Source: an uncultured Alphaproteobacteria bacterium (GTDB lineage Bacteria; Pseudomonadota; Alphaproteobacteria; CAAHEQ01; UBA3637). Taken from it: a stretch of DNA of 58,851 nt. Where the stretch lies: NCBI GenBank assembly GCA_949286245.1, contig CASECF010000060.1, forward strand, positions 1 through 58,851. The letters are read 5' to 3'. Position 1 is the first letter of the stretch. Each line of letters begins with the position of its first letter. This document shows, in pieces, positions 8,008 through 33,089 of this stretch. The position numbers and the translations under genes were made by a program. Below the pieces are notes generated by a model. The model worked only from the letters and a program-made list of their open reading frames with translations, was not told the origin of the DNA and ran no database searches.

Positions 8008-8035
8008 GGTCGTCCTATTTTTTTATTTTATTTTC

Positions 8036-9844: not shown

Positions 9845-9956
9845 TCATTCTTTCTCCTTGTTAATATAAAAATTCTTTTTTTAGAATAAATCAAAACACA
9901 CTATAAAGTCTACAAAAAAATGACATCTTTCCGACTTTTTTCAACCTTTTTTCATT

Positions 9957-10664: not shown

Positions 10665-10685
10665 TCTTTTAAATTCCCATATTGA

Positions 10686-10862
10686 TTAAGAAATCCAAGA
10701 AGCTGTTTTAGGAGCTCTTTTTAATTCCAAACAGGCGCACGGAGATTTCTTCAGCTCAGAATAATCCGGACCAATACCAACCGTTTCTTTTTCATAAATG
10801 GAACCACAGGCCACCAGGGCCAAAACAGCCAAGACACTCAATAAGAACAAATGTTTTTTCAT
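10686..10862 (-). CDS. Small lipoprotein, VirB7-like by size, lipobox and position; not in the ORF track (58 aa)
   Basis: ATG at 10860-10862 is preceded by aaaggaaacctt (SD). Translation: MKKHLFLLSVLAVLALVACGSIYEKETVGIGPDYSELKKSPCACLELKRAPKTASWIS, stop at 10686-10688. The lipobox is L-V-A-C. It sits between the two virB8 genes. Confidence 0.6.
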   Translation of the reverse strand: MKKHLFLLSVLAVLALVACGSIYEKETVGIGPDYSELKKSPCACLELKRAPKTASWIS

Positions 10863-10883
10863 AAGGTTTCCTTTCTTAAGATG

Positions 10884-10898
10884 TTAACCTAATGTTAA
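10884..10898 (-). promoter_or_regulatory. Perfect CtrA-box consensus TTAA-N7-TTAA in the virB8/virB7 intergenic gap
   Basis: The sequence is ttaa cctaatg ttaa. A third TTAA lies at 10876-10879. The site is 22-36 nt upstream of the virB7-like ATG. Confidence 0.35.
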
Positions 10899-10942
10899 CA
10901 TATAGCACATTATTTTTATTTATCCAATAAAAAAATGAACTC

Positions 10943-11584
10943 TTATTGTTTTTTCTTTGACTCGTTATATTTTACGACGGTTAACCCGTATGGATTCGCA
11001 AAATTAGTTCTAAAAACACGTCTAGAGGGATCATGTACGACTTCAATGATAGACACTTTACTTTCCCGTGAAATCGTACTTCCGAGGAGACGGACTACAT
11101 CAAACTCGACCGTAAACGTATTTCCCAATCGACTGATTCGTTGAATATCAACACTTTCCGTATAAGAGAGATTCCGAAGTTGAGTCACCTCCTCGCCGAA
11201 ACCAGCTAAAAATTGTCGATAAACATCCGCATTCGAAAGCAACCACACAGGTCCACCGACACCTATACGGCGATTAAATTCCGTTTGATCAGCAAATAAC
11301 GATAATCTCATTTCCAAATAATATCGGATCAGCATTTCATCCAACAATTTTTTATCACCGATATCGGAAGATAAAGGCTCTGCCTGAATCAATTGATTAG
11401 AGCTCATCGGAGAAGTCAATATTTGAGAAATAACCTTTAAGCGAGGAGCCATTTGAAGTAATGTCAAAATAATCAATAAATTAAATGCAATAATAATTGC
11501 CGCAACAATCATCCAAAACTTTGCCAAAAACTCGGCATTTCCTCTTTTTCCCAAAACACGTCGAGATAATTCTTCTTTGCTCAT
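10943..11584 (-). CDS. virB8: T4SS protein VirB8, second paralogue
   Basis: It has a TM helix (FWMIVAAIIIAFNLLIILTLL) and a VirB8-type C-terminus (..NFANPYGLTVVKYN). The likely start is MSKEELS at 11584, which forms an ATGA overlap with the stop of the upstream gene. The track ORF extends to 11611. Confidence 0.8.
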   Translation of the reverse strand: MSKEELSRRVLGKRGNAEFLAKFWMIVAAIIIAFNLLIILTLLQMAPRLKVISQILTSPMSSNQLIQAEPLSSDIGDKKLLDEMLIRYYLEMRLSLFADQTEFNRRIGVGGPVWLLSNADVYRQFLAGFGEEVTQLRNLSYTESVDIQRISRLGNTFTVEFDVVRLLGSTISRESKVSIIEVVHDPSRRVFRTNFANPYGLTVVKYNESKKKQ

Positions 11585-13212: not shown

Positions 13213-13214
13213 CC

Positions 13215-14288
13215 TTATTCAAATGTTTCTGTCAATGTTTTAATGTTTCTGATTGAAGGAATCGAAGCCAGTTGTTGATCCGCTTGCAACTCTAAACTAA
13301 ACGCCCAAATTTGTTGCAACAACATTGTCAACTGATATTCGACCAAACGTACTGCTATATTTTCCTTAATGGCCGTCACTTTATCTGTTCCTTGCAATTG
13401 TGTAGAATCCAAGATAACTCCCTCATACTTGTTAGGCGTACTGACAGACAGAGTATCTTCCAGTTCTTCCACCATTTTAGCTAATTTCTCAAGTTGATCT
13501 TTTAGAACCAAGACACGTGCCATATTTTTAATAACAGCTTGTTGCTCTTCATACATTCGCATTTGACGGGCATATGTTTCATTTTTCAGACCACCCTTTC
13601 CTTCTCTCTCAATTAAATTTTGAGCATTCTCCGACATATTTTTATCGACGGTATCTGCGGTGCTATTAATACCTTGATCAGAAACAGATCCAACAATATT
13701 CCCTGCTGTTTGAGAAGCCTGAACACCCGCTTGTGATGTTGTTCCCGTTGTTGTTCCAGTGGTTGTTGATATCCCGCCGGTCGTTCCGACATTTCCGGAT
13801 GTTGAGGAGGATCCACTTGTTGATCCGGAATTAGCAGATGTTGAAGAACCCGTTCCACCGCTCGATGTAGCTTGTTGTTGATCCTCTCTCCAATATTTAT
13901 TTACAAAAGCCTCTCCCTGACTTTCAATGACGTCACGCATATTCTCCGTTCCCTGATCAACATAATTGGAAATAGAGGAGGTTACGACCGATCCATCCGG
14001 TAAAAAAGGAATATCCGGCAATTTTGATTTAACATCCTGAACACTCGGCAACATGTTAATCATATCCTTTTGGGTCCCCTCAAGAACAGATTGGATGTCC
14101 GTCAATTTTTCCGTAGCCTGCAATTGATATTGTTTAACATAATCTTGAGCCTGCTTGGAAATATCCGAAATCGGTGTTCCACTTCCAGCCTCTAAAATAC
14201 ATTTGAGTGTGGTACAAACAGCCTCACCTCTCAGAGGGAACAAGAGAAGTAAGAATGCCGGTAATATAAAATACGTTTTTTTTATCAT
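13215..14288 (-). CDS. Secreted protein, member of a T4SS-linked paralogue set (357 aa)
   Basis: A signal peptide (..FPLRGEA) is followed by a helical N-segment, an S/G/T-rich core (aa ~140-196, TSSGGTGSSTSANSGSTSGSSSTSGNVGTTGGISTTTGTTTGTT) and a helical C-terminal module. Confidence 0.6.
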   Translation of the reverse strand: MIKKTYFILPAFLLLLFPLRGEAVCTTLKCILEAGSGTPISDISKQAQDYVKQYQLQATEKLTDIQSVLEGTQKDMINMLPSVQDVKSKLPDIPFLPDGSVVTSSISNYVDQGTENMRDVIESQGEAFVNKYWREDQQQATSSGGTGSSTSANSGSTSGSSSTSGNVGTTGGISTTTGTTTGTTSQAGVQASQTAGNIVGSVSDQGINSTADTVDKNMSENAQNLIEREGKGGLKNETYARQMRMYEEQQAVIKNMARVLVLKDQLEKLAKMVEELEDTLSVSTPNKYEGVILDSTQLQGTDKVTAIKENIAVRLVEYQLTMLLQQIWAFSLELQADQQLASIPSIRNIKTLTETFE

Positions 14289-14300
14289 AAAACCCCTCCT

Positions 14301-15596
14301 TTACTTCGGTTCTTCCGGTTTTGCCATCAATTCAAGAGGCTGTGCCAAAAGCATTTGTGTCGTTAAAACTTCCGCATTGGCAATTCCGATTCCGATCAAT
14401 GCAACCGTTTGCTTAATTCGAGCCAAAGAAGCCTTTGTATTAATTTGGATATCCTCAATCTGGTTACAGCCGTTTGTCGGCGCTCCCGTAATTGATTCGC
14501 TATCTGTCTTTAATTTCGACCGAATCCCCGTACTTAAGGATAAAACTTTTGTTGCCACTTCATTTAAATATTGAGATCGCTTCCAAGACATTGCATTTAA
14601 TTTATCAGAAGTTGGATTTTTTTCTGTTAAAAAGAACTCTTTTTGAGCAAAACTTCTCGCTGTTTGAAAATCTTTTTGAGGCGGAGCAAATTTTGATTCA
14701 TCCGCTTTTTTCAATATTTCTTCCTCGACATAATCATATGCATTACTCTCGACTGCCGTATAATTTTTTGTCTGGCCATCCGATGAGATGGGAGTGCTTC
14801 CTTGGATTGTGCCGCACCCACCGTCTCCGGCCAGAGCCTCATTCTGTTTTAACACCTCTTCATCTGTCTGAAGTTGAGCTTCCTTATTGCTTTCTGTTTG
14901 AACTTGCTGTGCCTCAGTCTTTACCGTACCTTCACTATCTGTTGTCGGAATACCCGTTGAGACAGCAGAAAACTCCATCGGTCCCATTTCTTCCAAAACC
15001 GCTGAAAAGTCTTTATAAACATCAGAAATCGGAACCGCTTCTTCTATACTATCCATAACGCCGGAAGGATCCAAACCATCCAACGAACCGGAAATAGTAT
15101 CCGTCACACCCCCTACAACACCCCCAATCGTATTTGAAACGGAGCCCGTCACACTGCCAACAGCACCACTAACACCCCCTACAACACCCCCGATCGTATT
15201 TGAAACGGAGCCCGTCACACTGCCAACAGCGCCACTAACGCCCCCTACAACACCCCCGATCGTATTTGAAACGGAGCCCGTCACACTATCAACAGCACCA
15301 CTAACGCCCCCTACAACACCCCCGATCGTATTTGAAACGGAACCCGTCACACTATCAACAGCTCCACTAACAACTTTATCCGCAACACCGGAAACATTTC
15401 CAACGACTCCGCTAACACTGTCCACAGTACTTCCCACCTGTTGAACGGTATCTTGAACTGTTCCTAATGTATCCGATCCCGGTAAAAATAAATCAAACGG
15501 TTTATCCTCTATAGGAGTGATAGCAGCAAGGGATCCTCCTGATAAAACTGAAAAGGATACAACCGATACCGCCAAAAAAAGAAGATGTTTTTTCAT
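14301..15596 (-). CDS. Secreted tandem-repeat protein, member of the T4SS-linked set (431 aa)
   Basis: A signal peptide (..SGGSLA|A) is followed by four copies of a 22-aa repeat, VSGAV[DG]SVTGSVSNTIGGVVGG. An acidic region and a helical C-terminal module follow. Confidence 0.6.
   Translation of the reverse strand: MKKHLLFLAVSVVSFSVLSGGSLAAITPIEDKPFDLFLPGSDTLGTVQDTVQQVGSTVDSVSGVVGNVSGVADKVVSGAVDSVTGSVSNTIGGVVGGVSGAVDSVTGSVSNTIGGVVGGVSGAVGSVTGSVSNTIGGVVGGVSGAVGSVTGSVSNTIGGVVGGVTDTISGSLDGLDPSGVMDSIEEAVPISDVYKDFSAVLEEMGPMEFSAVSTGIPTTDSEGTVKTEAQQVQTESNKEAQLQTDEEVLKQNEALAGDGGCGTIQGSTPISSDGQTKNYTAVESNAYDYVEEEILKKADESKFAPPQKDFQTARSFAQKEFFLTEKNPTSDKLNAMSWKRSQYLNEVATKVLSLSTGIRSKLKTDSESITGAPTNGCNQIEDIQINTKASLARIKQTVALIGIGIANAEVLTTQMLLAQPLELMAKPEEPK
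15109..15372 (-). repeat. 4 x 66-bp near-identical tandem repeat (in frame, coding)
   Basis: Units start at 15109, 15175, 15241 and 15307. They differ at only a few positions (for example ctgcc versus ctatc). Confidence 0.9.
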
Positions 15597-15613
15597 ATTC
15601 TATCCCTTCCTTT

Positions 15614-16351
15614 CTAAAATAATCCCTTCTGATCTGTTGAAGCAGATGTTTTCTCACTATCTACACGAGCTCCCTGAAGCGCCTTCAGTGCATCAATTCG
15701 AGCTCTTTCCGAAGCTAACACATTCAATTCCGTCATCTTTCCGGCCATTTGTATGGTTAAAACACCTAATCCTTTATACAAATCAATAATTGATTCTCTT
15801 TTTTCCAAATCTTCTTTTAATTTCTTAAAATCCTCGGTTGTTTTTTCAGAGTTTTGTTGCGAAATCGTAGCAACAGCTTTTGCATGCAATAAGTTCAGCA
15901 CATAATATTTTTGCTGATACGCCAACTCTCCTGGTTTATCTTGATCCTTGTTAGACTGTCCCTCAACTCTCTCTGTTGTGGCTATCATCGTCTTGGGATC
16001 AAAATAAATCAATTCTCTCAATTTTTCTTCTACTTTAACAACATCGGGATCCTTTTCCTCCAGCAAGCTTTTTAATTCTTTTGGAACAATCGGCAAAATT
16101 TCTTCGTTCACAAGGATACTTGCTTGCTCTTCTACCGTTTCACTTTTTTGAACCCCAGGCATCCCGATATTTTGTAATTTCTGTCGCGCATCTTCCACCG
16201 CTTGGAGATCTGACAATGTCGTATTAACCGTTGCCGAGATTTGTTCAATCGATTGCGCAACCCCTGGAATATCGAATGTCGAATTAGCCCACCCCAACAT
16301 GGGTAAAATGAGAAGCCCCCCAACAATTAATATATTTTGTCCTAACTTCAT
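15614..16351 (-). CDS. Secreted helical protein, possibly VirB5/TrbJ-like (245 aa)
   Basis: The signal peptide is ..PMLGWA|N. The size and all-helical, Gln/Glu/Lys-rich composition resemble VirB5/TrbJ. The N-terminal FDIPGVAQSIEQISATVNTTLSDLQ recalls the VirB5/TrbJ N-motif. The assignment is tentative. Confidence 0.45.
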   Translation of the reverse strand: MKLGQNILIVGGLLILPMLGWANSTFDIPGVAQSIEQISATVNTTLSDLQAVEDARQKLQNIGMPGVQKSETVEEQASILVNEEILPIVPKELKSLLEEKDPDVVKVEEKLRELIYFDPKTMIATTERVEGQSNKDQDKPGELAYQQKYYVLNLLHAKAVATISQQNSEKTTEDFKKLKEDLEKRESIIDLYKGLGVLTIQMAGKMTELNVLASERARIDALKALQGARVDSEKTSASTDQKGLF

Positions 16352-16360
16352 TTTAACCTC

Positions 16361-17299
16361 CTAAAATTGAGATCCTGCTTTTTGATTGGCCAAAACACCT
16401 TCCAGATTCAAAGATCCCGATTTTGTAATTAATAATTTATTCCAGAAATCCAAGCCGGAAATCGTGATAAACGAGTTCCATTGAATGGCCGCTCTTTCAT
16501 CTTGAGCCGTTTCTAATTGTTTTTCAGCCTCTTTTACCCAATCTAAATATTTTGGCGCCGTAGCTTGATGAACCAACGAGACAGCCGTTGAATTTGTTGC
16601 GGTTGACTTAATGGCATTTTCCAAATTTTGAACAATCGTACTAAATTCGCCAATCGAAGAGGTCTTCCCCGCTTTAAATTGCAGATTTTGTTGTATTAAC
16701 TTTTTATTTTGTTCCGCATTTTTATACTTATCCAAATTACCATAATTTGTTGATCCGGTCATCCCCATCAACGAAGAACCATCCACGACACCGGAACCTG
16801 TTACTACCGTCCCACCATCTACCGCTTGTGTTCCCGTCTGAGTAGCGGAAGAAACAGAATTTCCAACAACCGTTTCAGTACCTGCAACCGACGCTCCGGA
16901 AGAAACTGATCCGGTCGGAGAAGTAGCCGATGAAACCGTTGAAGGGTTCGATGACGAAGCCCCTCCGCCGGAGTTTCTATTGGAAGAAGCACTCGATCCA
17001 TCCGGTTTTTTCCCGTTAATGGCGTTCCAAAGAGAATCACTCATTTGACGTCCTTTTGAAATAGCAGAGCTCTGAAGCCCCTTTAACTGTGATGAGACAA
17101 TATTTCCCAAAGATAAATTCTCCCATTGAGACAATAAATTTTGATCCAATCCTACTTGTTTTTGGAGCTCTGTTTTAACATTATCCAAGACTTTCTCAAC
17201 ACTCAACTGCGGACCGGTAATAAAGGCCGTTCCCTGTGCGAGAACCGAAGACGTAAAGAGGCAAGAAAACCCGATTATTAAAAATTTTTTTAACATCAT
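16361..17299 (-). CDS. Secreted protein, member of the T4SS-linked set (312 aa)
   Basis: A signal peptide (..SSVLA|Q) is followed by an S/G/T-rich core (aa ~100-176) and a helical C-terminal module. Confidence 0.6.
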   Translation of the reverse strand: MMLKKFLIIGFSCLFTSSVLAQGTAFITGPQLSVEKVLDNVKTELQKQVGLDQNLLSQWENLSLGNIVSSQLKGLQSSAISKGRQMSDSLWNAINGKKPDGSSASSNRNSGGGASSSNPSTVSSATSPTGSVSSGASVAGTETVVGNSVSSATQTGTQAVDGGTVVTGSGVVDGSSLMGMTGSTNYGNLDKYKNAEQNKKLIQQNLQFKAGKTSSIGEFSTIVQNLENAIKSTATNSTAVSLVHQATAPKYLDWVKEAEKQLETAQDERAAIQWNSFITISGLDFWNKLLITKSGSLNLEGVLANQKAGSQF

Positions 17300-18246
17300 T
17301 TTAATTCCTCCCCAAAAGCTTTAGCTGACGTTGCATCTTGCAACACAATAGCGGAATTCAAACCAGCAGATGTTGCCTCAGATGCCAACAACAAATTCAT
17401 ATTTGCATTCATTCCCAGTGTCATTCCCGTCCACACCTGAATATCCTCCCGAATATTGATCGGTTTTTTAATTAATTCGACTGCCTCTTCTTTTGTTTTG
17501 TTATATTCGGTTGAAACAGCCATAATATTCAATGAATCAGACATAGCAGAACTACCGGCATCATAAATCACCTGAACCAAATTATCATACACTTTCTTCA
17601 ATGATTCTTGAGAGGCGGCATTTCCTCCTTTTTCATTACTGATAACAAAATTTTTATTCAGAAGATTTTTAGCTGCGGCCGGATTTCCCAATTGATCTTC
17701 CGATAAGCCATAAGGAGTTAAATCAACAAGGGGTTTTTGAGGCGTTCCTACCTCTGCAACATTTCCAAATAAATAACCGGTCGGAGACACATTGGAGGCT
17801 GTTTCACTGGTGACAAATCCCTCTCCCGGAACGGAAGAACCAGCCCCTGTTGTTGGGCTCTCAACGGACGTGTCCCCTGTACTTGTTCCGCCAGAAGAAC
17901 CCCCTGATGAGGAACTGCCGGAAGAACTACTCGACGATCCGCCTCCCGATGAAGAACCACTCGACGAAGAACTACCCGACGATCCGCCTCCCGATGAAGC
18001 GACTTTTTTACCACCGGAAGTATCACCGGAAGGCCCCATAATGAGATTTTGAAGTGTTTCTTCGGAAAGAGTGGCAAGATTATTGATAACATCTGCTATT
18101 AACGTAGACAAAACGGCAATAATCATCGGCTGAATATTATCAATGTATTTAACCGGTTGCCCCGCATAACCCTCTTTAGCTGAGGTTAGCAAAAGGCTTG
18201 TCCCTAAAAGAAATATCCCGATTCCTGACAAAAATTGTTTCCTCAT
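17296..18246 (-). CDS. Secreted protein, member of the T4SS-linked set (316 aa)
   Basis: After the signal peptide there is a nearly pure Ser/Gly tract at aa 84-120 (SSGGGSSGSSSSSGSSSGGGSSSSSSGSSSSGGSSGG) and a helical C-terminal module. It has a 4-nt overlap with the next gene. Confidence 0.6.
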   Translation of the reverse strand: MRKQFLSGIGIFLLGTSLLLTSAKEGYAGQPVKYIDNIQPMIIAVLSTLIADVINNLATLSEETLQNLIMGPSGDTSGGKKVASSGGGSSGSSSSSGSSSGGGSSSSSSGSSSSGGSSGGTSTGDTSVESPTTGAGSSVPGEGFVTSETASNVSPTGYLFGNVAEVGTPQKPLVDLTPYGLSEDQLGNPAAAKNLLNKNFVISNEKGGNAASQESLKKVYDNLVQVIYDAGSSAMSDSLNIMAVSTEYNKTKEEAVELIKKPINIREDIQVWTGMTLGMNANMNLLLASEATSAGLNSAIVLQDATSAKAFGEELK

Positions 18247-19157: not shown

Positions 19158-20330
19158 TCACTTATACTCAACAACGACAAAACGTTTGGCATTTTCCAAA
19201 ATTTTATCGGACATATGTTCCAACCTTTCCAATTCTATTTGAGTTCGGATTTCATCATCAGACGGAAGAAGATTCTTTTGAGACACGGAACACTTCATGA
19301 AGAAAACATTTGCCCCATTCATTTGGAGGGGGCCTATCACTGTATTGATAGCAGCCGGAGACAATAATTCTTTTAATTCAGGTGGCAATTGATCAGGAGA
19401 GATCATTCCTTTTTGAATGGATTCCGGAATAGCTTCCTTGTGAGCAAAATCCATAAAATCCCGACAAGAATGAAGATCACCGACGATTGTCGGCATAAGA
19501 GTGACCGTTTTATCAAGCGTTAACGCTTGTTGAGCCAGCTCCCAAATCTGAATTGTATCACTTGTCAAGGCCTTCTTTTTATCCAACATAGCCAAAATTA
19601 AAAAGCCATTTTTTGTTTCGATTGGGCGCGATAATTGACCGGGGATCATCTGCTCCAAAATAGGTTGAACAACCGCTTCGTAATGATTCTTTTTAACCCA
19701 ACCGATCTGTCCGCCACGAGAAGCGGAAGGGGCTTTTGAATACTGGCGAGCAGCTTGATCAAACGCAATTTTTCCGGAACGAATTTCTTTTTCACACCGT
19801 AAAGCTTCTGCCTCGTTGGGAAGTAATATTTCTGCCAATAAATATCCTTCTTCTCTCAAACTCTTCCGTATTTGGTTTTTTCTTGCTTTGATTTCGGCAG
19901 GTTGTACGGGTTGAATATTTTGTTTTTGGCGTTGCATCAGTTGTAGCCACATGAGATCCGAACGAACTTGATCTTTCAAAAAATCAAGTGGCACATTATT
20001 TTGTTTAAGAACACGAGCTAATTGTCCCTTTTTCATTCCATTTTGTTGTTCCAGATGAGCAATCGCATTTTGAATATCTTCATCTCGAACGATAATTCCA
20101 TTTTTTTGAGCATATTGAACTTTAATTTTTTCATTGATAAGAGTGTTCAAGATTTGCTTTTTCATTTGATTATTGAATATATAGTTTTCGCTTTTTTGTA
20201 AATTCATCAATCGAGTCCGCACATCAACATCGAATGATGAGATCGGTTCATCGTTAACTGTTGCGATAATTTCACCGGCGCAAGAAACACTGCTCCACAT
20301 AAAAAGAAGCAAACAAATAACATATTTCAT
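19158..20330 (-). CDS. surA: Periplasmic chaperone/peptidyl-prolyl isomerase, SurA-like
   Basis: It has a signal peptide, a SurA N-domain and one parvulin domain (..SRGGQIGWVKKNH...GQLSRPIETKNGFLILAML). It follows lptD, as is usual in alphaproteobacteria. Confidence 0.75.
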   Translation of the reverse strand: MKYVICLLLFMWSSVSCAGEIIATVNDEPISSFDVDVRTRLMNLQKSENYIFNNQMKKQILNTLINEKIKVQYAQKNGIIVRDEDIQNAIAHLEQQNGMKKGQLARVLKQNNVPLDFLKDQVRSDLMWLQLMQRQKQNIQPVQPAEIKARKNQIRKSLREEGYLLAEILLPNEAEALRCEKEIRSGKIAFDQAARQYSKAPSASRGGQIGWVKKNHYEAVVQPILEQMIPGQLSRPIETKNGFLILAMLDKKKALTSDTIQIWELAQQALTLDKTVTLMPTIVGDLHSCRDFMDFAHKEAIPESIQKGMISPDQLPPELKELLSPAAINTVIGPLQMNGANVFFMKCSVSQKNLLPSDDEIRTQIELERLEHMSDKILENAKRFVVVEYK

Positions 20331-23300
20331 TACATACCCCCCAAAGATTTCAAAATAAATTTAACGGTCATCGATGTTCCACCGCTATAGTCACGATCAC
20401 TGGTAAAAGACCGTTCTAAATCAAATGCGATTGCAACACACTCATTATCATATTGTGTAATGAGACCCGCCTCAACAGGGCCTCCGTCTTTAGCCAAATC
20501 ATAGCGATAATAACCGGAAACAGACCAATTTTTTGAAAACTTAGAAGATCCGAAAAAGAGTAATTCCTCTCGAGATGAATAGTAGTTATCTGCGATTTGA
20601 ACCGGTTTTAAATAAACATAATCAATCCCTAAGCGCAAAGGATCCGATCCGCCTGATAATGTGATTTCATTTTTTTTAGGTTGCATATTTCGCTCATCTA
20701 AACGGAAGCGATAAGCTAAAGAGATGGCGTGATAATTTACTTGAACTCGCCCGACGTAATCAGATGCATTCGAATCGGCATTACCCATAAGAGCATTCAT
20801 CTCATCATCATCCGTCAATCGGTAAGATTGACCAAACATAGTCGAGATAGACCGATCATTGGTATCATATAAAGACCACTGCAATCCATAATTAACCCTT
20901 GTTCCTGTTTCAACACGATCATATCCCGCAAACCGATTTCTGGAAAAAAGATTGGTATCATCAAAATCAAAATCAATGCTATCAACATCCGGAATTTTAT
21001 CATTATTTCCACTATTGGGAGCCGAAACCAACATAACAATCGGTTCTAAAACCTGACTGGTATTTTCGGTAGACATAGCCATCGGATAGCTCATTTTAAC
21101 GGATCCAATCGGATAGATACGTCCCGTCGTATATGTATCATCTGTTTTCTGTTCTCCGAACGCATATTCTCCCGTATCGATCTGATATCCATCCGCACGA
21201 ACCGTTCCGATAATATCAAAGGCCGCCCCCCATGTGCTGACATAAGGTAAATGAAGTCCTTGAGTCACGGACAATCGGTTAGATTTAAAGCGTTGTCTGT
21301 TTTGATAAATAGCCGAATCAACCTCTGTAAAAGCATACAATCCATTATCCGTAAGCGGATCTGTGTTTACTCTATAAAACATCATCGGAATAATAATCGG
21401 GATTGAATCACTGGAAACACGATCTTGCAAACTTTGAAACGATAACCCCTGAACGGCAAAATAATTTTGTGTTCCAAATCGTTCTGCTGCAATATATGAT
21501 CTTAAAAAAGAGCGGGAATCATCAATACCCGGAATACTGTATCGTCTAAAATAGGTGTCACTGGATGTTCTGAAATACTGTCCCTGAATACGCCATAAAT
21601 CCGAAACATCATACCGAAAATCAGCTTTGATATGACCTTGCTTTTTATCATCATCATTATCCCGCGTTCCGCTGGCCTGAACATTCAAAAATCCCTCTTT
21701 ATACAGGCCCTTGTAATCAGCAATTATAAGGGGGTCATGCGTCGGAGAAAACGTCGGCGTTAAAAGTAAATTTTGATTATCTGACAAATCTACAAAAAAA
21801 GGAGTTGTAATTCCGCCCTTCATTTCCTCTCCGTGTGACAAACTGGGAGACAAAAATCCTGTTTTTCTCTTCACCGTAAAATCAGGTGTTTGCAAATACG
21901 GAAAATAAAAAATCGGAATATCTTTAACTTCTAAAAAAGAATTTTTATATGTCATTGTTTTATCAACGGCATCATGTTTAACATCGTTTGATCTTAAAGA
22001 CCAAAGAGGGGCTGTCCCCTCACAAAAATCACAAGGGGTATATGTCACATCTTTTAAGTAAAGAACCGTTCCGGCATGCGTACGTTTCAAACGAGATGCC
22101 GTTATATGTGTCCCATCGACTAATTTCATAATCATGGCTCCGGACACAGCCTCTTTCATATCGCCCGATAAAGTTAATTCTTGTGTTTCTGTTGTTGTTC
22201 CGTCCGGTATTGTTAAGACAACATTTCCTTGAGCCATCATTTGATTTTTTTGACGGTTATAAATCAATTTATCTGCTTTTAAAATTGTTTTTTCCTGTAT
22301 GGCAACAACATCTCCAGAAGCGATAACCGTATCATTTTTTTTATCATAAAAAACCGTATCGGATTCAAAATCGACAGGCTTGTCCTTATCCACGGCATGT
22401 TCGAAATCTGCCTTCACTTGAGCAATCGCCGTTGAAGCAATTAAAGAAGTAATTAAGACAATCAAAATCATTTCAATTCGTACTCCCTTGATTTTGACTG
22501 AATAGCCTCGTATCATAATCAAATACAAAACAATGATCGGTAAAAACACATTAACCGCCATCAAAGGTAAAAAGACCAAATTTTTACCGGAAATATTTTC
22601 AAACGCCAACGCCAGAGACTGAATGATCAAGGCCAATACGACAACCAAATTAATTCTGCCCATTTGACCACGACGATTGTAGTGAGCCGAGAGAACACCG
22701 AACATAGCTAAAAAGGCAAACGTAAAATTATAAAGCGGCTGTAAAATACGTTTTAAAGCTTCAACCTTCATTTTTCGATAAACAACTTCGTTTTCGGCAT
22801 CTTTCGGTTGTGATAAAATAAGCGTTTTCAAATCATATTCCCCGACATCACTGGATCTTGTTTCTCCCTCATTCTTTTTATCATTAAACCACATTGTGTA
22901 CTGATCAAATTTTAAAACAGAAAATTGTTTTGTCTTAGGGTTTAATTCTTGGCGTACACCTTCTTGGAAAATAACCCGAACACCTTTTTCTTCCTGAAGA
23001 ACAACCCCACCTTTTGCGATGAGAACAGATGTCTTTTCGGGATCTTTTGTTTCATAAGCCATCACGCCTTTGACGGAACCGTCCGGCAATCGTTCTTTAA
23101 CATAAAGGGTCAATCCGTTTTTAAAAGAATTGAACTGCCCTTCTTGCAAAAGTAAATGGGACAAATCATTTTTAACCTGCCATTTCATTTCACGAAGAGA
23201 AGTAGTCGCCTCGGGGACAAGAACCAACGTCAACACATATCCCAGAATCGTCAAAGCAAAAGCAAACATCAACGCTGGTTTCATAATTTGTTTCGGAGAC

Positions 23301-23581
23301 ATACCGATTGCCTGCATAACCATGAGTTCTTTATCAGATTGCATCCGAGAAAAAACAAACAAAACAACAGCAAACAAAGCTAACGGCGACAACACTTGCA
23401 TAAAATTCGGTAAAACCAGAAATGTCATCTTTAAAAAGATTCGTACGGGAACTCCGTTGGTGACGATCATATCAATCATTTTTAAGGATTGTGTCAACCA
23501 CACCAAAACGGTCATACTCGCCAAAACCAAGACGAAGCCGACAAAAATTTGTTTCAAGATATATTTGTTTAAAAGTTTCAT
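20330..23581 (-). CDS. lptD: Single 1,083-aa ORF: an LptF/LptG-family LPS-export permease (aa 1-~365) fused in frame to LptD/OstA (aa ~371-1083)
   Basis: The N-terminal part is a YjgP/YjgQ permease (MKLLNKYILKQIF..., 6 TM, periplasmic beta-jellyroll insert). From M371 it reads MILIVLITSLIASTAIA|QVK, which is signal-peptide-like. The LptD OstA N-domain follows (DTVFYDKKNDTVIASGDVVAIQ...), then the beta-barrel (..FYFPYLQTPDFTVKRKTGFLSPS..). Confidence 0.85.
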   Translation of the reverse strand: MKLLNKYILKQIFVGFVLVLASMTVLVWLTQSLKMIDMIVTNGVPVRIFLKMTFLVLPNFMQVLSPLALFAVVLFVFSRMQSDKELMVMQAIGMSPKQIMKPALMFAFALTILGYVLTLVLVPEATTSLREMKWQVKNDLSHLLLQEGQFNSFKNGLTLYVKERLPDGSVKGVMAYETKDPEKTSVLIAKGGVVLQEEKGVRVIFQEGVRQELNPKTKQFSVLKFDQYTMWFNDKKNEGETRSSDVGEYDLKTLILSQPKDAENEVVYRKMKVEALKRILQPLYNFTFAFLAMFGVLSAHYNRRGQMGRINLVVVLALIIQSLALAFENISGKNLVFLPLMAVNVFLPIIVLYLIMIRGYSVKIKGVRIEMILIVLITSLIASTAIAQVKADFEHAVDKDKPVDFESDTVFYDKKNDTVIASGDVVAIQEKTILKADKLIYNRQKNQMMAQGNVVLTIPDGTTTETQELTLSGDMKEAVSGAMIMKLVDGTHITASRLKRTHAGTVLYLKDVTYTPCDFCEGTAPLWSLRSNDVKHDAVDKTMTYKNSFLEVKDIPIFYFPYLQTPDFTVKRKTGFLSPSLSHGEEMKGGITTPFFVDLSDNQNLLLTPTFSPTHDPLIIADYKGLYKEGFLNVQASGTRDNDDDKKQGHIKADFRYDVSDLWRIQGQYFRTSSDTYFRRYSIPGIDDSRSFLRSYIAAERFGTQNYFAVQGLSFQSLQDRVSSDSIPIIIPMMFYRVNTDPLTDNGLYAFTEVDSAIYQNRQRFKSNRLSVTQGLHLPYVSTWGAAFDIIGTVRADGYQIDTGEYAFGEQKTDDTYTTGRIYPIGSVKMSYPMAMSTENTSQVLEPIVMLVSAPNSGNNDKIPDVDSIDFDFDDTNLFSRNRFAGYDRVETGTRVNYGLQWSLYDTNDRSISTMFGQSYRLTDDDEMNALMGNADSNASDYVGRVQVNYHAISLAYRFRLDERNMQPKKNEITLSGGSDPLRLGIDYVYLKPVQIADNYYSSREELLFFGSSKFSKNWSVSGYYRYDLAKDGGPVEAGLITQYDNECVAIAFDLERSFTSDRDYSGGTSMTVKFILKSLGGM

Positions 23582-28818: not shown

Positions 28819-30717
28819 ATGAGATTAAAAAGGGTTATACATATTTTCTGTATGACCCTTTTTTTATTCTTTTTTACGGGGATTACAATCGGACACGCCG
28901 TTTTACTTGAAAATAAATCTCCGAATATATCAAATCAAGACACCGGTTCAACACATTTTTCAAGAGAGAAAAAAGCTGGTTCAGATCCGCTTTGGCTGGC
29001 ATTGGTCCATTACCGACCGACAATAACGGGAGGATTCCGCAGTACGATAGATGGAGATAATTTCTTTTTATCCGAATCGGGGAGAACAGATCCGCAACAG
29101 GAACTGAAAGCGACCATTCAACTGTTTGAAGGATCGAATCGTGACAAGCAATGTTTATTTCCCGCTCGATATACCTATTTAAAACAGCGAGATCTTATTC
29201 AAAAAGATTTTCCCTCCTGTCCTGAATATGAGCAATTTCAAAAAGATCTAAATCCGGCAGGCGTCACGCTCCTGTATACGGACGCCTACATGAACAACCC
29301 ATCTTCTTTGTTCGGACATACGCTTTTTAGAATTGATATTCCGGAAGGACGAACCCAATTGGTTGCTCACGGAATGAATTACGGGGCCTTTATCAATCCG
29401 GACGATAATGGTATTTTGTTTGCTGTTTTGGGGCTCACCGGCGGATACTGGGGCGGATTTACGGTCAAACCCTATTATGCCGTCATCAACATGTACAACA
29501 ACATAGAAAATCGAGATATTTGGGAATTTAAACTCAATTTAACCCAAACAGAACAAGAATGGATGGTGGCCCACCTCTGGGAACTTGGTCATACCCGTGC
29601 TCGTTATTATTTTTTCACTCGAAACTGTTCCTATTTGCTGATGGAAGTTTTAGATGCCGTCAGACCCTCATTAAAATTAGCAGATCAATTTCCGGTACAA
29701 GCCATTCCGTTAGACACGCTTAAGGCTGTTTCAAATCAAGATCATTTCATTTTAGATACGACTTATCGGCCGTCTCGTCAAAAAAGGATTCAAGAAGCCT
29801 ATTATGTAATGACTTCGGCACAACGACAACTGTTAAAAAAGCGCTTGGAAAAACCGGAGCCGATTCAAAGCGATTTATCCACGGAAGAAAAAGCCCTTGT
29901 TTTGGAAACAGCTTACGAATACATTCAATACCAATGGATCAATCAAGACATTTCCTTAAAGGAATATCGTCCTCAAACATTTTCTCTTTTAAAGGAGCGA
30001 AGAGATTTAGGATATGTGTCAACATCGCCTAAAATGATCGGTTCTTCACCGTTAACGGCTCATGATTCATCAGCGATATCCGTTGAGACCGGCGCTCATA
30101 ACGGTGAAACTTTTGAAGAAATCTCCATAAGACCGGCCTATCATTCCTTAACGGATCCGGTTGAGGGATTGCTTTCGGGAGCGGAGATTAACTTTTTAAA
30201 CACAACGGTTCGCTATAAAAATCGAACACGTCGTTTTGTTTTTCAAGATTTGGATTTGGTTAAAATTACATCGCTCTCTCCATGGAATGCTCTTTTTCAT
30301 CCTCCGTCATTTCAAATTAAAACCGGCATTCATCGAATTTGGAACCCCAAAACACAAAAAGACGGTTTGGTTTATGAAATCACAGGCGGGAGCGGACTCA
30401 CTTTTCGTCTGACACCCACGCAATCGATTTACGCCTTTCTCAACACGGGGATTAACGGGGGTGGAATTATGCCTCATAATTTCGGAGGCATGATCGGACC
30501 AGCGTTTGGATGGCTTTATACCGGCCATAAAATATCAGCTCAAATAGAAACGGCGCGAGATTTTTCGGATAATGAACTGATGAATCAAACGAGTGTCTCG
30601 GGGAAATTATCCATACATCTTAAACACAACTTTGATCTGATCACGAGTTATCAGTTTCAGGATCAAAAATACCACAGCCAAAACACATTTAAAATAGGGA
30701 TTAAAAAGTTTTTCTAG
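28819..30717 (+). CDS. DUF4105 (Lnb N-terminal periplasmic domain) protein with a beta-barrel-like C-terminus
   Basis: It has a signal peptide and LWLALVHYRP...FPARYTYL...LFGHTLFRID, which is DUF4105-like. The C-terminal third is beta-rich and ends ..KIGIKKFF (OMP-like terminal Phe). Confidence 0.6.
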   Translation: MRLKRVIHIFCMTLFLFFFTGITIGHAVLLENKSPNISNQDTGSTHFSREKKAGSDPLWLALVHYRPTITGGFRSTIDGDNFFLSESGRTDPQQELKATIQLFEGSNRDKQCLFPARYTYLKQRDLIQKDFPSCPEYEQFQKDLNPAGVTLLYTDAYMNNPSSLFGHTLFRIDIPEGRTQLVAHGMNYGAFINPDDNGILFAVLGLTGGYWGGFTVKPYYAVINMYNNIENRDIWEFKLNLTQTEQEWMVAHLWELGHTRARYYFFTRNCSYLLMEVLDAVRPSLKLADQFPVQAIPLDTLKAVSNQDHFILDTTYRPSRQKRIQEAYYVMTSAQRQLLKKRLEKPEPIQSDLSTEEKALVLETAYEYIQYQWINQDISLKEYRPQTFSLLKERRDLGYVSTSPKMIGSSPLTAHDSSAISVETGAHNGETFEEISIRPAYHSLTDPVEGLLSGAEINFLNTTVRYKNRTRRFVFQDLDLVKITSLSPWNALFHPPSFQIKTGIHRIWNPKTQKDGLVYEITGGSGLTFRLTPTQSIYAFLNTGINGGGIMPHNFGGMIGPAFGWLYTGHKISAQIETARDFSDNELMNQTSVSGKLSIHLKHNFDLITSYQFQDQKYHSQNTFKIGIKKFF

Positions 30718-30814
30718 CTCATCTTCAAAACAATCCACAACAGACTATTGAAAAGTACAAATCAAGCAATCATCTCAAAATCAATCTCTCAAAAGGAACG
30801 AATCTTTTCAAGGA

Positions 30815-32764
30815 TTATTTTAAAACGCAATAATTTCCATCCAACTTTCGTTGATCGGTGCACTCATAACACGCATCCGTCATATTCGTGACCGGAACCC
30901 TCGTTTCCGTATCACACGGATAGCACTTGTTATCCGATCCTCGAAGCGGTAAATCTCCCGAACATTTCGGAACACACATGAGATTATATAAATTCCTTGT
31001 ATTGGGACACCGTTCACACCCCTCATGAGAAACACTATTCACATCAATATTTTTCTCTTCATCACACGAATAACACTTTCCATCATTTCCCGTAAATGTT
31101 CCTTCTTCACAGGGGATGGAACACCGTTGATTATGATATCCATTGGCAATTCGATTAGGACAAATATTACTACAATAATTAAGAGCATTATAAATTGTAA
31201 TCGGATCAGAATGATCACAAGAATAACACTTCCCATCACTTCCTCTGATTTCTCCGGTAGGACAATTCAAAATACAATAGTTTCCAGATAAAATTCGATT
31301 AGGGCAGAGCTCACACCCATCATGAGAAACACCATCCATATTAATCGGTTTTGTTTCATCACACGCATAACATTTACCGTCTGCCCCAGTAAATGTTCCC
31401 TCTCCGCACGGAAGTGAACACCGCCTATCGTGCCATCCATTTACTACTCGATTAGGACAAATATTGCTACAATAATTAACAGCATTATAAATTGTAATCG
31501 AGGCCTTATAATCACAGGGATAACAAATCCCATCATCTCCTTTTATTTCCCCTTTGGGACAATCTAACACACAATAATTTCCGACCTGTGTTCGATTATT
31601 ACATCGATCACAACCATCATGGGTGACTTGAGTGACATCGATGTTTTTTTCTTCATTACAAGAATAACATTTCCCGTCACCTCCCGTAAATGTTCCCTCT
31701 CTGCATGGAATAGAACAATATCTATTTAACCATCCATTTGCTACTCGATTAGGGCATATAGATTCACAATAATTGGCTGTATGCGAAATTATGATCGGTT
31801 CAGTATAATCGCAGGAATAACATTCCCCATTGTCTTGCCTAAGTGGAGTTCCTTCAGAACATGGAATCACACATTGAATATTAAAAGAGGTTCTTGCCCA
31901 CAATTCTCTATTCTCACACACCCTGCAATTTTCTTCCACGCCTGTCACATCAACACCTGCTTCATTGTCACACGCATAACATTTCCCATCTTTTCCAATC
32001 AGGGGTTTATGCCACGGGCAACACTGATCGTTCTCATTACAGCACATGCCATTGACGGCTTTGGCACAACAATAAGGGCCTGATCGTCTCTCTTGGGGGC
32101 AACAGACCTGTTCCCCCGTCTCCGTATCTTGAGCACACCGCTCATACCCCTCGCAGGAGGACACACAAATGTTCTCTTGACACCGTTGGCAAGCATTACA
32201 ATCCGAATCTTCCTCACAATACCAGTTGGGCAGTGCCGTCTCATCCATGTCCTCATCAAACAAAAACACCATGGTGGCCGTTTCTCTGTTATCCATCTCG
32301 CTCGGTTCACAGATCAGATCGTTCCCCCCATACACAATCTCGTTGGCTTTCATCAAAACAGGGAGTTTCCACCCCATCTTTAAAATCTTGCGACACACCC
32401 CCACAGGCACATGCGTCACTTCTAGCTCAAACAGTTTCGGATCATCCGGTTCTCGAAACGCCGTCACGGGATAGCCTTGTCTTGTTATCACCGGGAATTC
32501 ATCCATTGTGAGTGTTCCTCTGTTTTGTCTCACCTGTTCGCCTACACTCACCGCCCGAAGCGTCAGTTCATTGATTGTCTCATTGGCTTTATAGCTATCC
32601 ATCGCATATCGATATCCTGCGATTGCTCCGATTGAGAGAACACCCATAATTGCCAAAACCCCCAACATCTCCACCATGGAACGCCCCGATTCGGATGAAG
32701 CAGTCTTTTTCAGGTTTTTAATTTTAGCCCTGATTTTACTCTTTAAAATCAACTCTTTGAACAT
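30815..32764 (-). CDS. Prepilin-type N-terminus protein with a large cysteine-rich (CxxC, furin/VSP-like) repeat region
   Basis: The class III signal reads ...SESG|RSMVEMLGVLAIMGVLSIGAIAGY, with Glu at +5 and a hydrophobic helix. A pilin-like globular part of about 150 aa follows. Residues 191-657 (track numbering) contain roughly 80 Cys in GKCYSCD...C..C...YC...C units. The ATG at 32764 has a strong SD (ggaggg, 5-nt spacer). The track ORF starts at a TTG at 32788. Confidence 0.7.
   Translation of the reverse strand: MFKELILKSKIRAKIKNLKKTASSESGRSMVEMLGVLAIMGVLSIGAIAGYRYAMDSYKANETINELTLRAVSVGEQVRQNRGTLTMDEFPVITRQGYPVTAFREPDDPKLFELEVTHVPVGVCRKILKMGWKLPVLMKANEIVYGGNDLICEPSEMDNRETATMVFLFDEDMDETALPNWYCEEDSDCNACQRCQENICVSSCEGYERCAQDTETGEQVCCPQERRSGPYCCAKAVNGMCCNENDQCCPWHKPLIGKDGKCYACDNEAGVDVTGVEENCRVCENRELWARTSFNIQCVIPCSEGTPLRQDNGECYSCDYTEPIIISHTANYCESICPNRVANGWLNRYCSIPCREGTFTGGDGKCYSCNEEKNIDVTQVTHDGCDRCNNRTQVGNYCVLDCPKGEIKGDDGICYPCDYKASITIYNAVNYCSNICPNRVVNGWHDRRCSLPCGEGTFTGADGKCYACDETKPINMDGVSHDGCELCPNRILSGNYCILNCPTGEIRGSDGKCYSCDHSDPITIYNALNYCSNICPNRIANGYHNQRCSIPCEEGTFTGNDGKCYSCDEEKNIDVNSVSHEGCERCPNTRNLYNLMCVPKCSGDLPLRGSDNKCYPCDTETRVPVTNMTDACYECTDQRKLDGNYCVLK
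30818..31825 (-). repeat. About 3.3 tandem copies of a ~297-bp (~99-aa) coding repeat, each made of two ~49-aa Cys-rich half-units
   Basis: Units begin at aa 322 (CYSCDYTEPIIISHTANYCESICPNRVANGW...), aa 422 (CYPCDYKASITIYNAVNYCSNICPNRVVNGW...) and aa 521 (CYSCDHSDPITIYNALNYCSNICPNRIANGY...). Confidence 0.85.
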
Positions 32765-32786
32765 TCCGTCCCTCCAAAAGTGTTTC

Positions 32787-32896
32787 AAAAAAACGATCCT
32801 TTTTTTGAAACGCTTCTTAGCTCAAAAAAAGCTTGATTTTCTGCCATCCTTTCGGGTATAAAAAAAAGGATCCTTTTTTTGCGACAAAAAAGATCC
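32787..32896. promoter_or_regulatory. Cluster of A-run/GATCC/T-run palindromes upstream of the pilin-like gene
   Basis: A7-CGATCC-T7 lies at 32787-32806. A perfect 20-bp palindrome, A7-GGATCC-T7, lies at 32861-32880. A half-copy, A6-GATCC, lies at 32886-32896. Confidence 0.35.
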
Positions 32897-33089
32897 ATAT
32901 AAATGTTTGATTTTAAAAGTACTTATTTTAAAAATCGGCCTTGTTCACTCTATTTTTAAAATATTTTATTTTAAAATATTCTTATCTTGATTTTTGATGA
33001 AAATAAACGCAAAAGCTATTTACTCTGCCTCTCAATATGAAAATCGGGAAAGATATATCTTGTCTTGAAAAGAGTCGTTTTTAAGGACT

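What the first reader, a model, noticed from the sequence alone, without database searches (positions are those of the whole stretch)
30815..32764. Type IV prepilin-like protein fused to a eukaryote-like cysteine-rich CxxC repeat ectodomain
The N-terminus has a prepilin-peptidase-type class III signal (basic leader, G|RSMVEMLGVLAIMGVLSIGAIAGY, Glu+5). A pilin-like head of about 150 aa follows.

The remaining ~470 aa are about 17 percent Cys, in regularly spaced units (GKCYSCD-x-C-x2-C-x..-YC-x3-C). These resemble furin-like/EGF-receptor repeats and the CxxC surface antigens of protists (Giardia VSPs, ciliate immobilisation antigens).

Pilins of this size are exceptional. A disulfide-dense module displayed on a pilus or pseudopilus by an intracellular bacterium suggests a host-interaction or host-mimicry adhesin, possibly acquired from or convergent with a protist host. 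No pilus-assembly genes are in the window.
Basis: partly seen in the sequence, partly recalled or inferred. Interest (0 to 1): 0.7.

Follow-up and report, generated by a model that had tools for sequence, protein, structure and literature searches.

The report
Cysteine-rich modular type IVb pilin
This gene from an uncultured gut alphaproteobacterium encodes a type IV pilin whose small pilin module is fused to a long cysteine-rich repeat rod that is bacterial in origin, with no detectable eukaryotic relatives, and belongs to a large gene family probably used to decorate pili with varied adhesive tips.

Summary
The ORF at 30815-32764 (minus strand, 649 aa) is real and conserved: 681 homologues were found. 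It has a pilin-type class III signal (G27|R28, Glu+5), a 50-residue alpha-1 helix and a small beta head. Profile and fold searches match type IVb pilins (TcpA, CofA, PilS). An acidic linker leads to about 470 aa with 62 Cys (13%, not 17%). This part is a CC-doublet cap plus eight six-Cys units of about 50 aa, including three 99-aa tandem super-repeats.

The repeat has no Pfam, PDB-sequence or Foldseek relative. All named homologues come from gut Alphaproteobacteria MAGs, and some carry ordinary Sec signals. The eukaryote-like/protist-origin reading is therefore not supported.

The window has no pilus genes. Related MAGs carry a tcp-like type IVb operon (TcpQ, secretin, PilO, ATPase, platform), in one case 3 kb from a family member. 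They also carry 150-aa PilS-type pilins with the same N-terminus. No prepilin peptidase was seen.

Paralogues reach at least 17 per MAG. Best reading: a new, expanded variant of the known "modular pilin" design, displayed on type IVb pili as an adhesin or variable surface module.

The parts
32684..32764 (-). Leader peptide of the class III signal (residues 1-27, basic, ending in Gly27)
   Evidence: Read directly from the sequence. A GGAGG RBS lies 6 nt upstream of the ATG. Gly-1 is invariant in the family.
32609..32683 (-). Hydrophobic alpha-1N segment of the mature pilin (residues 28-52, RSMVEMLGVLAIMGVLSIGAIAGYR; R+1, E+5)
   Evidence: R28 and E32 are invariant. The A3 profile aligns in register with mature TcpA and PilA, placing E+5 on Glu5. 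Pfam N_methyl is only sub-threshold at 11.9 bits.
32255..32683 (-). Whole pilin module (residues 28-170): alpha-1 helix 30-79 plus beta-sheet head 99-170 with the conserved Cys124/Cys152 pair
   Evidence: AF2 secondary structure. Foldseek matches TcpA 8uhf and CofA 9iuf at probability 1.0 (TMt 0.43) and S. Typhi PilS 3fhu at 0.96. Profile search gives TcpA at E=3.5e-5. C124 and C152 are invariant.
32219..32254 (-). Acidic, low-confidence linker (residues 171-182, DEDMDETALPNW)
   Evidence: pLDDT dips to 56-71 in this stretch, between two confident modules.
32018..32218 (-). Cys-rich 'cap' (residues 183-249): 15 Cys including four CC doublets (CC-x9-CC-x7-CC-x5-CCP)
   Evidence: Cys positions. 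The cysteines are conserved in the family. No Pfam hit, Granulin included, at E<=1.
30818..32017 (-). Repeat rod (residues 250-649): eight six-Cys units of about 50 aa with consensus C-x-L-x-C-P-x-D-K-P-L-x3-G-x-C-Y-x-C-D-x13-C-x3-C-P-N-R
   Evidence: pLDDT is about 90.
30977..31873 (-). Three tandem 99-100-aa super-repeats (residues 298-397, 398-496, 497-596)
   Evidence: HMM self-hits of 180-185 bits each. Pairwise identity is 55-64%. TRF reports period 297 bp at 31014-31760. The AF2 model of one super-repeat has pLDDT 92.7 and pTM 0.80.
32868..32896 (-). Terminator-like hairpin upstream of the gene, suggesting a separate transcription unit
   Evidence: The downstream neighbour (Lnb_N gene, 28819-30717, + strand) is convergent.

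Best explanation
The gene encodes a modular type IV pilin of the type IVb class.

Inferred from established pilin biology: the prepilin is inserted into the inner membrane through its class III signal. A prepilin peptidase would cut after Gly27, leaving Arg28 as the new N-terminus. The alpha-1 helix (with Glu+5) and small beta head would then be polymerised by a type IVb pilus machine.

Shown in relatives: that machine (TcpQ, secretin, PilO, ATPase, platform) is present in related MAGs. The same MAGs carry 150-aa PilS-type pilins with the same N-terminus, which are the likely bulk subunits.

Shown here: a flexible acidic linker joins the pilin module to a ~470-aa exported rod of stacked short hairpins held by 62 cysteines (a cap plus eight six-Cys units).

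Inferred: the rod is displayed at the pilus tip or along the pilus as the ligand-binding or surface-variable part. Many paralogues per genome carry different rods, so they would give pili different specificities. This parallels the large minor pilins TcpB and CofB, and the PilV variants of R64.
For: Class III signal:
- G-1, R+1 and E+5 are invariant in alignments of 43 and 33 family members.
- A charged Glu conserved inside a membrane segment is the pilin assembly signature (PMC10191384).

Pilin module:
- Profile against PDB sequences: TcpA 3.5e-5, type IVa pilins 1e-4 to 8e-4, CofA 4.5e-3, all aligned in register.
- AF2 model (mean pLDDT 83): helix 30-79 plus a beta head. Foldseek gives probability 1.0 to TcpA and CofA and 0.96 to PilS.
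- 3 of 33 modules hit Pfam PilS at 5e-9.

Short pilins:
- Short PilS-domain pilins with the same GRSMVEMLG N-terminus form 49 clusters.
- In L001 one lies directly upstream of the 57%-identical homologue P0009.

Machinery in the clade:
- L074 carries TcpQ (9e-18), Secretin (9e-10), PAP_PilO (5e-26) and the start of an ATPase, 3 kb from a 726-aa, 88-Cys family member.
- L085 and L087 carry a GspE/PilB-class ATPase (232 and 211 bits) plus a T2SSF platform, 7-8 kb from the PilS pilin.
- L074 is from the same MAG as L057, whose VirB11 is 76% identical to the window's.

The rod is an exported module:
- The same repeat occurs behind ordinary Sec signal peptides and behind a VIT domain.

General design:
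- Modular pilin architecture (pilin module, short linker, effector module) is established (PMC8179133).
Against: - No prepilin peptidase gene was found in the window or in about 1.4 Mb of related loci. That search was only a GxGD motif scan.
- The window's own genome could not be searched for machinery.
- Pfam N_methyl is below threshold (11.9 vs 21.2 bits) and NCBIfam gives nothing.
- Arg at +1 is not the usual Phe, Met or Leu.
- At least 17 paralogues in one MAG is far more than the usual handful of minor pilins.
- A few divergent members have lost Glu+5 (P0106, P0112, P0119).
- Disulfide bonding, surface display and adhesion are all inferred, not shown.
Confidence: 0.65

Rival explanations
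1. A bitopic inner-membrane or periplasmic protein. On this reading the pilin-like N-terminus is only an uncleaved signal anchor, a relic of a pilin ancestor. The Cys-rich domain would work in the periplasm and would not be polymerised into a filament.
For: - No prepilin peptidase was seen.
- The N_methyl HMM is sub-threshold.
- Arg at +1 is unusual.
- Some relatives lack Glu+5.
- Paralogues are very numerous and scattered among housekeeping genes, not in pilus operons.
Against: - G-1 and E+5 are invariant over sequences only about 30% identical overall. This is hard to explain for a plain anchor.
- The fold and the in-register profile match are to assembled pilins.
- A type IVb operon lies next to a family member in L074.
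- Short pilins share the identical N-terminus.
Confidence: 0.17
2. One reading: the ectodomain is eukaryote-like (furin/EGF-receptor repeats, Giardia VSP, ciliate antigens). It would be acquired from, or mimic, a protist or animal host.
For: - CxxC periodicity and high Cys content resemble VSPs on the surface (sequence; recalled resemblance only).
- Foldseek noise-level hits are all to eukaryotic disulfide modules: megalin E=2e-4 (prob 0.63) for the whole model, plus LDLR-A, IGF1R and 4-1BB at E>0.1.
- T4SS and ankyrin-repeat genes in the clade suggest dealings with eukaryotic cells.
Against: - No Pfam family (Furin-like, GCC2_GCC3, VSP, EGF, Granulin) hits even at E<=1.
- The repeat profile against PDB sequences gives only chance Fe-S and Zn-finger matches.
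- The pLDDT-93 repeat model has TM<=0.27 to everything in the PDB.
- Searching the Cys-rich part alone gives 105 hits, and the repeat profile gives 534 clusters among 1.84 billion representatives. Every named hit is from an Alphaproteobacteria MAG.
Confidence: 0.03
3. The CxxC array binds metals (Zn ribbons or Fe-S-like sites) instead of forming disulfides. The rod would be a metal-stabilised or redox-active appendage. This concerns only the rod and is compatible with its being a pilin.
For: - The CxxC-x12-16-CxxC spacing is typical of zinc ribbons (sequence).
- The only PDB sequence-profile hits are a formate dehydrogenase beta Fe-S subunit (E=0.004), a CopA metal-binding domain and a nuclear-receptor zinc finger.
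- The hosts live in the anoxic gut, where disulfide formation is less assured.
Against: - The hits are at chance level.
- The module is extracytoplasmic, since Sec-signal versions exist.
- The four CC doublets are features of disulfide-rich proteins.
- The cap and the repeat part each hold an odd number of Cys (15 and 47, total 62), which fits disulfide pairing across the two parts.
- The pilin head itself keeps an invariant Cys pair, as in disulfide-bonded pilins.
Confidence: 0.1

Closest known systems
Large minor pilins of type IVb pili: TcpB (V. cholerae) and CofB (ETEC)
   Same: - An N-terminal type IVb pilin module followed by a linker and extra C-terminal domains.
- Encoded in genomes with a tcp/cof-type operon. 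The TcpQ, secretin, ATPase, platform order is seen in L074 and L085.
- The pilin module's best structural matches are TcpA and CofA.
- CofB is described as a tip-located modular pilin in PMC8179133.
   Different: - The C-terminal module here is a Cys-rich hairpin rod with no similarity to the beta-repeat and beta-sandwich domains of CofB.
- There are dozens of paralogues instead of one gene.
- The genes are scattered outside the pilus operon.
- Arg at +1.
Modular minor pilins PilB (vWA module) and PilC (lectin module) of Streptococcus sanguinis; 'modular pilins' as defined by Raynaud et al. 2021
   Same: The design is a small pilin carrier module, a short linker, and a bulky effector module presumed to be displayed by the filament for adhesion (PMC8179133).
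   Different: - Those are type IVa pilins of a monoderm with InterPro-recognisable modules.
- This one is type IVb-like and from a diderm.
- Its signal escapes the N_methyl and TIGR02532 models.
- Its effector module belongs to no described family.
PilV adhesin of the R64/S. Typhi type IVb thin pilus (shufflon-variable C-termini) with PilS as major pilin
   Same: - PilS-type short pilins are present (PF08805) and a PAP_PilO accessory protein.
- A pilin-like protein has interchangeable C-terminal parts that would set binding specificity. (Function of PilV is from general knowledge.)
   Different: - Variation here comes from a multigene family and repeat-number change, not DNA inversion.
- No inverted cassettes were found.
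- No sequence similarity to plasmid pil genes: tblastn against 72,556 plasmids found nothing.
Eukaryotic Cys-rich repeat ectodomains (furin-like/EGFR-IGF1R, TNFR, LDLR-A, granulin, Giardia VSP)
   Same: Extracellular, elongated stacks of small hairpins stapled by many cysteines. The cap has CC-doublet spacing like granulin.
   Different: No detectable homology by Pfam, PDB sequence profile or Foldseek. The resemblance is at most convergent.

Membership tests
Type IV pilins (class III signal peptide proteins) | Hydrophilic leader ending in Gly or Ala, then 20-25 mainly hydrophobic residues, often with Glu at +5 (PMC10191384) | tested here: met
   The leader is 27 aa ending in G27. It is followed by RSMVEMLGVLAIMGVLSIGAIAGY with E at +5. 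G-1 and E+5 are invariant in the family. The alignment with TcpA and PilA is in register.
Type IV pilins (class III signal peptide proteins) | Recognition by the curated signature (Pfam N_methyl PF07963 / TIGR02532 = IPR012902) | tested here: not met
   PF07963 gives E=0.18 and 11.9 bits against a 21.2-bit cut-off. NCBIfam gives no hit. Arg at +1 is the likely reason.
Type IV pilins (class III signal peptide proteins) | Lollipop fold: a long (~50 aa) N-terminal helix packed on an antiparallel beta-sheet head | tested here: met
   AF2 shows helix 30-79 and strands 99-170. Foldseek gives TcpA and CofA at probability 1.0 (TMt 0.43) and PilS at 0.96.
Type IV pilins (class III signal peptide proteins) | Cleavage (and often N-methylation) by a dedicated prepilin peptidase | not testable with these tools
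   No peptidase was seen in the window or in about 1.4 Mb of related loci, using only a GxGD motif scan. Whole genomes could not be searched.
Type IV pilins (class III signal peptide proteins) | Assembly machinery (extension ATPase, platform, secretin) in the same organism | tested here: inconclusive
   Absent from the 58.8-kb window. Present in related MAGs: L074 has TcpQ, Secretin, PilO and an ATPase N-terminus next to a family member. L085 and L087 have a GspE/PilB-like ATPase plus T2SSF.
Type IVb pilin subclass | Long leader peptide, TcpA/CofA/PilS-like head, tcp/bfp/pil(R64)-type clustered machinery, found in Proteobacteria | tested here: met
   The leader is 27 aa. The best fold and profile hits are TcpA, CofA and PilS. 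Paralogues hit the PilS Pfam family. TcpQ and PAP_PilO genes occur in the clade. The ATPase scores below every equivalog cut-off, so the machine is divergent.
Modular pilins (Raynaud et al. 2021) | An N-terminal pilin module fused by a short linker to an extra module not specific to type IV pilus biology | tested here: met
   Pilin module 28-170, low-pLDDT acidic linker 171-182, Cys-rich module 183-649. The same repeat module also occurs behind Sec signals and a VIT domain.
Furin-like / GCC2_GCC3 / EGF / TNFR / VSP / granulin Cys-rich repeats | A significant match to the family profile or fold | tested here: not met
   Pfam finds none at E<=1 on the whole protein or on the cap. The repeat profile against PDB sequences gives only chance hits. 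Foldseek on the repeat model gives best E=0.18 and TM<=0.27.

The most novel reading that the evidence does not exclude
Uncultured gut Alphaproteobacteria carry an rvh-like T4SS and conserved ankyrin-repeat genes. They may have evolved a bacterial counterpart of protist variant surface proteins. This would be a lineage-specific repertoire of pilin-anchored rods: at least 17 genes in one MAG and more than 500 clusters at 50% identity. The rods are Cys-rich, of a fold with no solved relative. They would be loaded onto a divergent type IVb pilus whose subunits all begin with Arg after cleavage. Alternative rods would switch host- or partner-binding specificity, or evade immunity.
Probability: 0.25. 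Interest if true: 0.75.

Novelty: new variant of a known kind. Interest (0 to 1): 0.5.

Why it matters
Modular pilins explain how simple filaments gain many functions, but known examples carry recognisable domains and occur as one or two genes per system. Here an undescribed, confidently predicted disulfide-rich fold is grafted onto a divergent type IVb pilin. It is amplified into dozens of paralogues per genome in gut Alphaproteobacteria that have never been cultured.

If these proteins are displayed on pili, they would be the main surface-variable or adhesive repertoire of this clade. They would be a handle for finding what these bacteria attach to, whether epithelium, protists or other bacteria.

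The family also escapes the standard pilin signatures. Surveys based on IPR012902 therefore undercount such proteins.

Tried and rejected
- Eukaryotic affinity. Tested with Pfam at E<=1 on the whole protein and the cap, phmmer and profile searches of PDB sequences, Foldseek on the whole model and on a single super-repeat, a homologue search with the Cys-rich part alone, and a profile search of 1.84 billion representatives. None gave a eukaryotic link.
- Granulin idea for the CC-doublet cap. No Pfam support.
- Shufflon-like inversion cassettes next to family genes. Only complete genes or contig-truncated pieces were found.
- Plasmid or phage origin. tblastn found nothing in 72,556 plasmids. It found only two unannotated faecal 'Bacteriophage sp.' contigs matching the N-terminus.
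- Pilus ATPase search with the window's VirB11 as the phmmer query. It found only VirB11 orthologues. The machinery was found later through the short-pilin loci.
- Prepilin peptidase by GxGD motif. Nothing convincing.
- Literature on the clade (RF32/CAG-239, pili). Nothing relevant.
- Exact look-up of the window protein in the contig index. Not on record.
- Disulfide connectivity could not be read, because model coordinates are not exposed.
Full report
**1. The observation**

The window has a 649-codon ORF on the minus strand, 30815..32764. A GGAGG sequence lies 6 nt before the ATG. The closest homologues start at the same MFK.

The N-terminus is MFKELILKSKIRAKIKNLKKTASSESG|RSMVEMLGVLAIMGVLSIGAIAGY. 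This is a basic 27-residue leader ending in Gly. It is followed by a hydrophobic stretch with Glu at +5.

Residues 1-180 hold 2 Cys and residues 181-649 hold 62, which is 13.2%, not 17%. The cysteines have three layers of order:
- A 'cap' (residues 183-249) has 15 Cys, including four CC doublets.
- After the cap come 24 Cxx(x)C pairs about 17 aa apart. They group into six-Cys units of about 50 aa.
- Three tandem 99-100-aa super-repeats (298-397, 398-496, 497-596) are 55-64% identical to each other.

The DNA shows the matching 297-bp tandem repeat.

**2. Is it a real, conserved gene?**

A homologue search gave 681 proteins at E<=1e-3, many full-length, at 89% down to about 26% identity. None had a functional name or a Pfam domain over the repeat. 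Their Cys counts step by six (58, 64, 70, 76, 82, 88), which fits a six-Cys unit.

In a 43-sequence alignment, G27, E32 and almost all cysteines are invariant.

**3. The N-terminal module**

Standard signatures miss it. Pfam N_methyl scores 11.9 bits against a 21.2-bit cut-off, and NCBIfam finds nothing.

A profile of 33 diverse N-terminal modules has G-1, R+1 and E+5 invariant and a nearly invariant Cys pair. Against PDB sequences it hits:
- TcpA at 3.5e-5;
- type IVa pilins at 1e-4 to 8e-4;
- CofA at 4.5e-3.

All are aligned so that the family's Glu falls on Glu5 of the mature pilins. Three of the 33 modules hit Pfam PilS at 5e-9.

The AF2 model has mean pLDDT 83. It shows a 50-residue helix (30-79) and a beta head (99-170). 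Foldseek matches the assembled type IVb pilins TcpA and CofA at probability 1.0 and S. Typhi PilS at 0.96.

By the definition in PMC10191384, this is a class III signal peptide on a lollipop pilin fold of type IVb flavour. Arg at +1 is unusual.

**4. The Cys-rich module**

It is joined to the pilin module by an acidic, low-confidence linker (171-182) and is itself predicted with pLDDT about 90. A separate model of one super-repeat reaches pLDDT 92.7 and pTM 0.80.

No known relative was found:
- Pfam gives nothing at E<=1 for the whole protein or the cap.
- phmmer and a 39-sequence repeat profile against PDB sequences give only chance matches to Fe-S and Zn proteins.
- Foldseek gives megalin at E=2e-4 (probability 0.63) for the whole model. 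For the single repeat nothing is better than E=0.18 and TM 0.27.

Searching with the Cys-rich part alone returned 105 proteins. The repeat profile found 534 clusters among 1.84 billion representatives. Every named hit is from a gut Alphaproteobacteria MAG.

Many of the profile hits carry ordinary Sec signal peptides instead of the pilin module, and one follows a VIT domain. The repeat is therefore an exported, lineage-specific bacterial module used on several carriers. The furin/EGF/VSP resemblance and a protist origin are not supported.

**5. Who carries it, and in how many copies?**

Of the 80 loci kept, 79 are from uncultured Alphaproteobacteria MAGs from human (Hadza, Nepal), ruminant and rabbit guts. 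The exception, L051, is labelled Lactobacillales.

The window belongs to this clade. Its VirB11 is 80% and 76% identical to those in L022 and L057. Housekeeping stretches align at 64-75% nucleotide identity with several loci.

In 81 loci I counted 111 ORFs with the GRSM.EMLG start. Mature lengths run from 125 to 1,632 aa and Cys counts from 2 to 184. Tandem arrays of up to four occur, and one MAG (SIG53) has at least 17 copies.

The genes sit among housekeeping genes. The 89%-identical P0001 lies in a quite different neighbourhood. Nucleotide similarity to the window (88%) stops about 150 bp upstream of the gene.

**6. Machinery**

The window has none. It does carry a VirB-type T4SS.

Short PilS-domain pilins of 150-170 aa with the same N-terminus form 49 clusters. 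They occupy a conserved Ank-rnd-pcnB-pilin locus. In L001 the Cys-rich homologue P0009 follows directly.

In L085 and L087, a 935-aa GspE/PilB-class ATPase and a T2SSF platform lie 7-8 kb from that pilin.

L074 is from the same MAG as L057. It has an operon encoding, in order:
- a TcpQ-domain protein;
- a lipoprotein-type secretin;
- PAP_PilO;
- an unknown protein;
- the start of the same ATPase.

This operon lies 3 kb from a 726-aa, 88-Cys family member. The order TcpQ, secretin, accessory proteins, ATPase, platform mirrors tcp-type type IVb operons (general knowledge).

A prepilin peptidase was not found. Only a motif scan over about 1.4 Mb was possible.

**7. Mechanism**

Shown:
- the class III signal;
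- a pilin fold of type IVb type;
- a linker followed by an exported repeat module;
- a paralogue family;
- type IVb machinery and same-N-terminus short pilins in relatives.

Inferred:
- cleavage at G27|R28;
- incorporation into pili built mainly of the short pilins;
- display of the disulfide-stapled rod as an adhesin or variable module, with paralogues supplying alternative specificities.

I put this at 0.65. The rivals are:
- an uncleaved signal-anchored periplasmic protein (0.17);
- a metal-binding rather than disulfide-bonded rod (0.10, compatible with a pilin);
- a eukaryote-derived mimic (0.03).

**8. Comparison and novelty**

It works like the large minor pilins TcpB and CofB and like the modular pilins PilB and PilC of S. 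sanguinis. It meets the structural definition of a modular pilin (PMC8179133). It differs in four ways:
- the effector fold belongs to no described family;
- Arg at +1, and it escapes IPR012902-type signatures;
- the scale of paralogue expansion;
- scattered gene locations.

I rate it a new variant of a known kind, with interest 0.5. The eukaryotic-origin, 'exceptional size' and 'intracellular' parts were not supported.

Noticed in passing
window 396-11611 (minus strand): A VirB-type (rvh-like) type IV secretion cluster. It has VirB11 (396-1385) and a giant 2,202-aa VirB10/TrbI protein carrying about nine beta-flower repeats (1399-8007). It also has a VirB9/CagX protein with a C-terminal SPOR domain (8036-9844) and two VirB8 paralogues (9957-10664, 10943-11611).
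   Followed up: partly
window 11581-18246 (minus strand): Six consecutive ORFs (543, 357, 431, 245, 312 and 316 aa) between virB8 and folD have no Pfam hit at E<=1e-3. They may be divergent T4SS components, for example VirB6-like.
   Followed up: no
window 20330-23581 (minus strand): A single 1,083-aa ORF combines an LptF/LptG permease domain (residues 6-355) with LptD_N and LptD outer-membrane domains (406-1019). This is either an odd fusion of inner- and outer-membrane LPS-transport parts or a merged gene call.
   Followed up: no
L001, L082, L084-L089 (relatives): Ankyrin-repeat proteins of 400-480 aa are conserved next to the short-pilin locus (Ank-rnd-pcnB-PilS pilin) in many MAGs of the clade. 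Together with the T4SS, this hints at interaction with eukaryotic cells.
   Followed up: partly
L090 5852-7941 vs window 30815-32914: The 89%-identical homologue P0001 sits between secE-nusG-rplKAJL-rpoB and kdsB, with virB4 nearby, not beside ELM1 and Lnb_N as in the window. The 88% nucleotide identity ends about 150 bp upstream of the gene, suggesting relocation or transfer of the gene as a unit.
   Followed up: partly
P0170, P0175, P0176, P0184, P0187, P0190, P0174 (proteins): The same Cys-rich repeat occurs behind ordinary Sec signal peptides. In P0174 (1,616 aa) it follows a VIT domain. P0216 (2,262 aa, 225 Cys) has 21 matched stretches.
   Followed up: partly
P0106, P0112, P0119 (and P0087): A divergent sub-branch of the family has a degenerate N-terminus (for example ENGKSLWNIVRT...). 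Three of the four lack Glu+5, so they may be plain membrane anchors.
   Followed up: no
L085 11555-16417 and L087 11586-16517: Autotransporters of 1,620-1,643 aa lie beside the short-pilin locus in the two MAGs that show the ATPase and platform pair.
   Followed up: no
L070 16431-18356: A second T2SSE-domain ATPase (642-aa ORF, Pfam 2.8e-28) occurs in the JAZLAQ01 MAG, away from the type IVb operon. Its role is unknown.
   Followed up: no
GenBank MT836177.1 and MT839721.1; L051: Two unannotated human-faecal 'Bacteriophage sp.' records encode the GRSMVEMLG-type N-terminus. One family-bearing MAG is labelled Lactobacillales. Both are probably mis-assigned alphaproteobacterial contigs.
   Followed up: no
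window 30767-30794: A short 14-bp tandem repeat (1.9 copies) lies in the 97-bp convergent intergenic region between the Lnb_N gene and the pilin gene.
   Followed up: no
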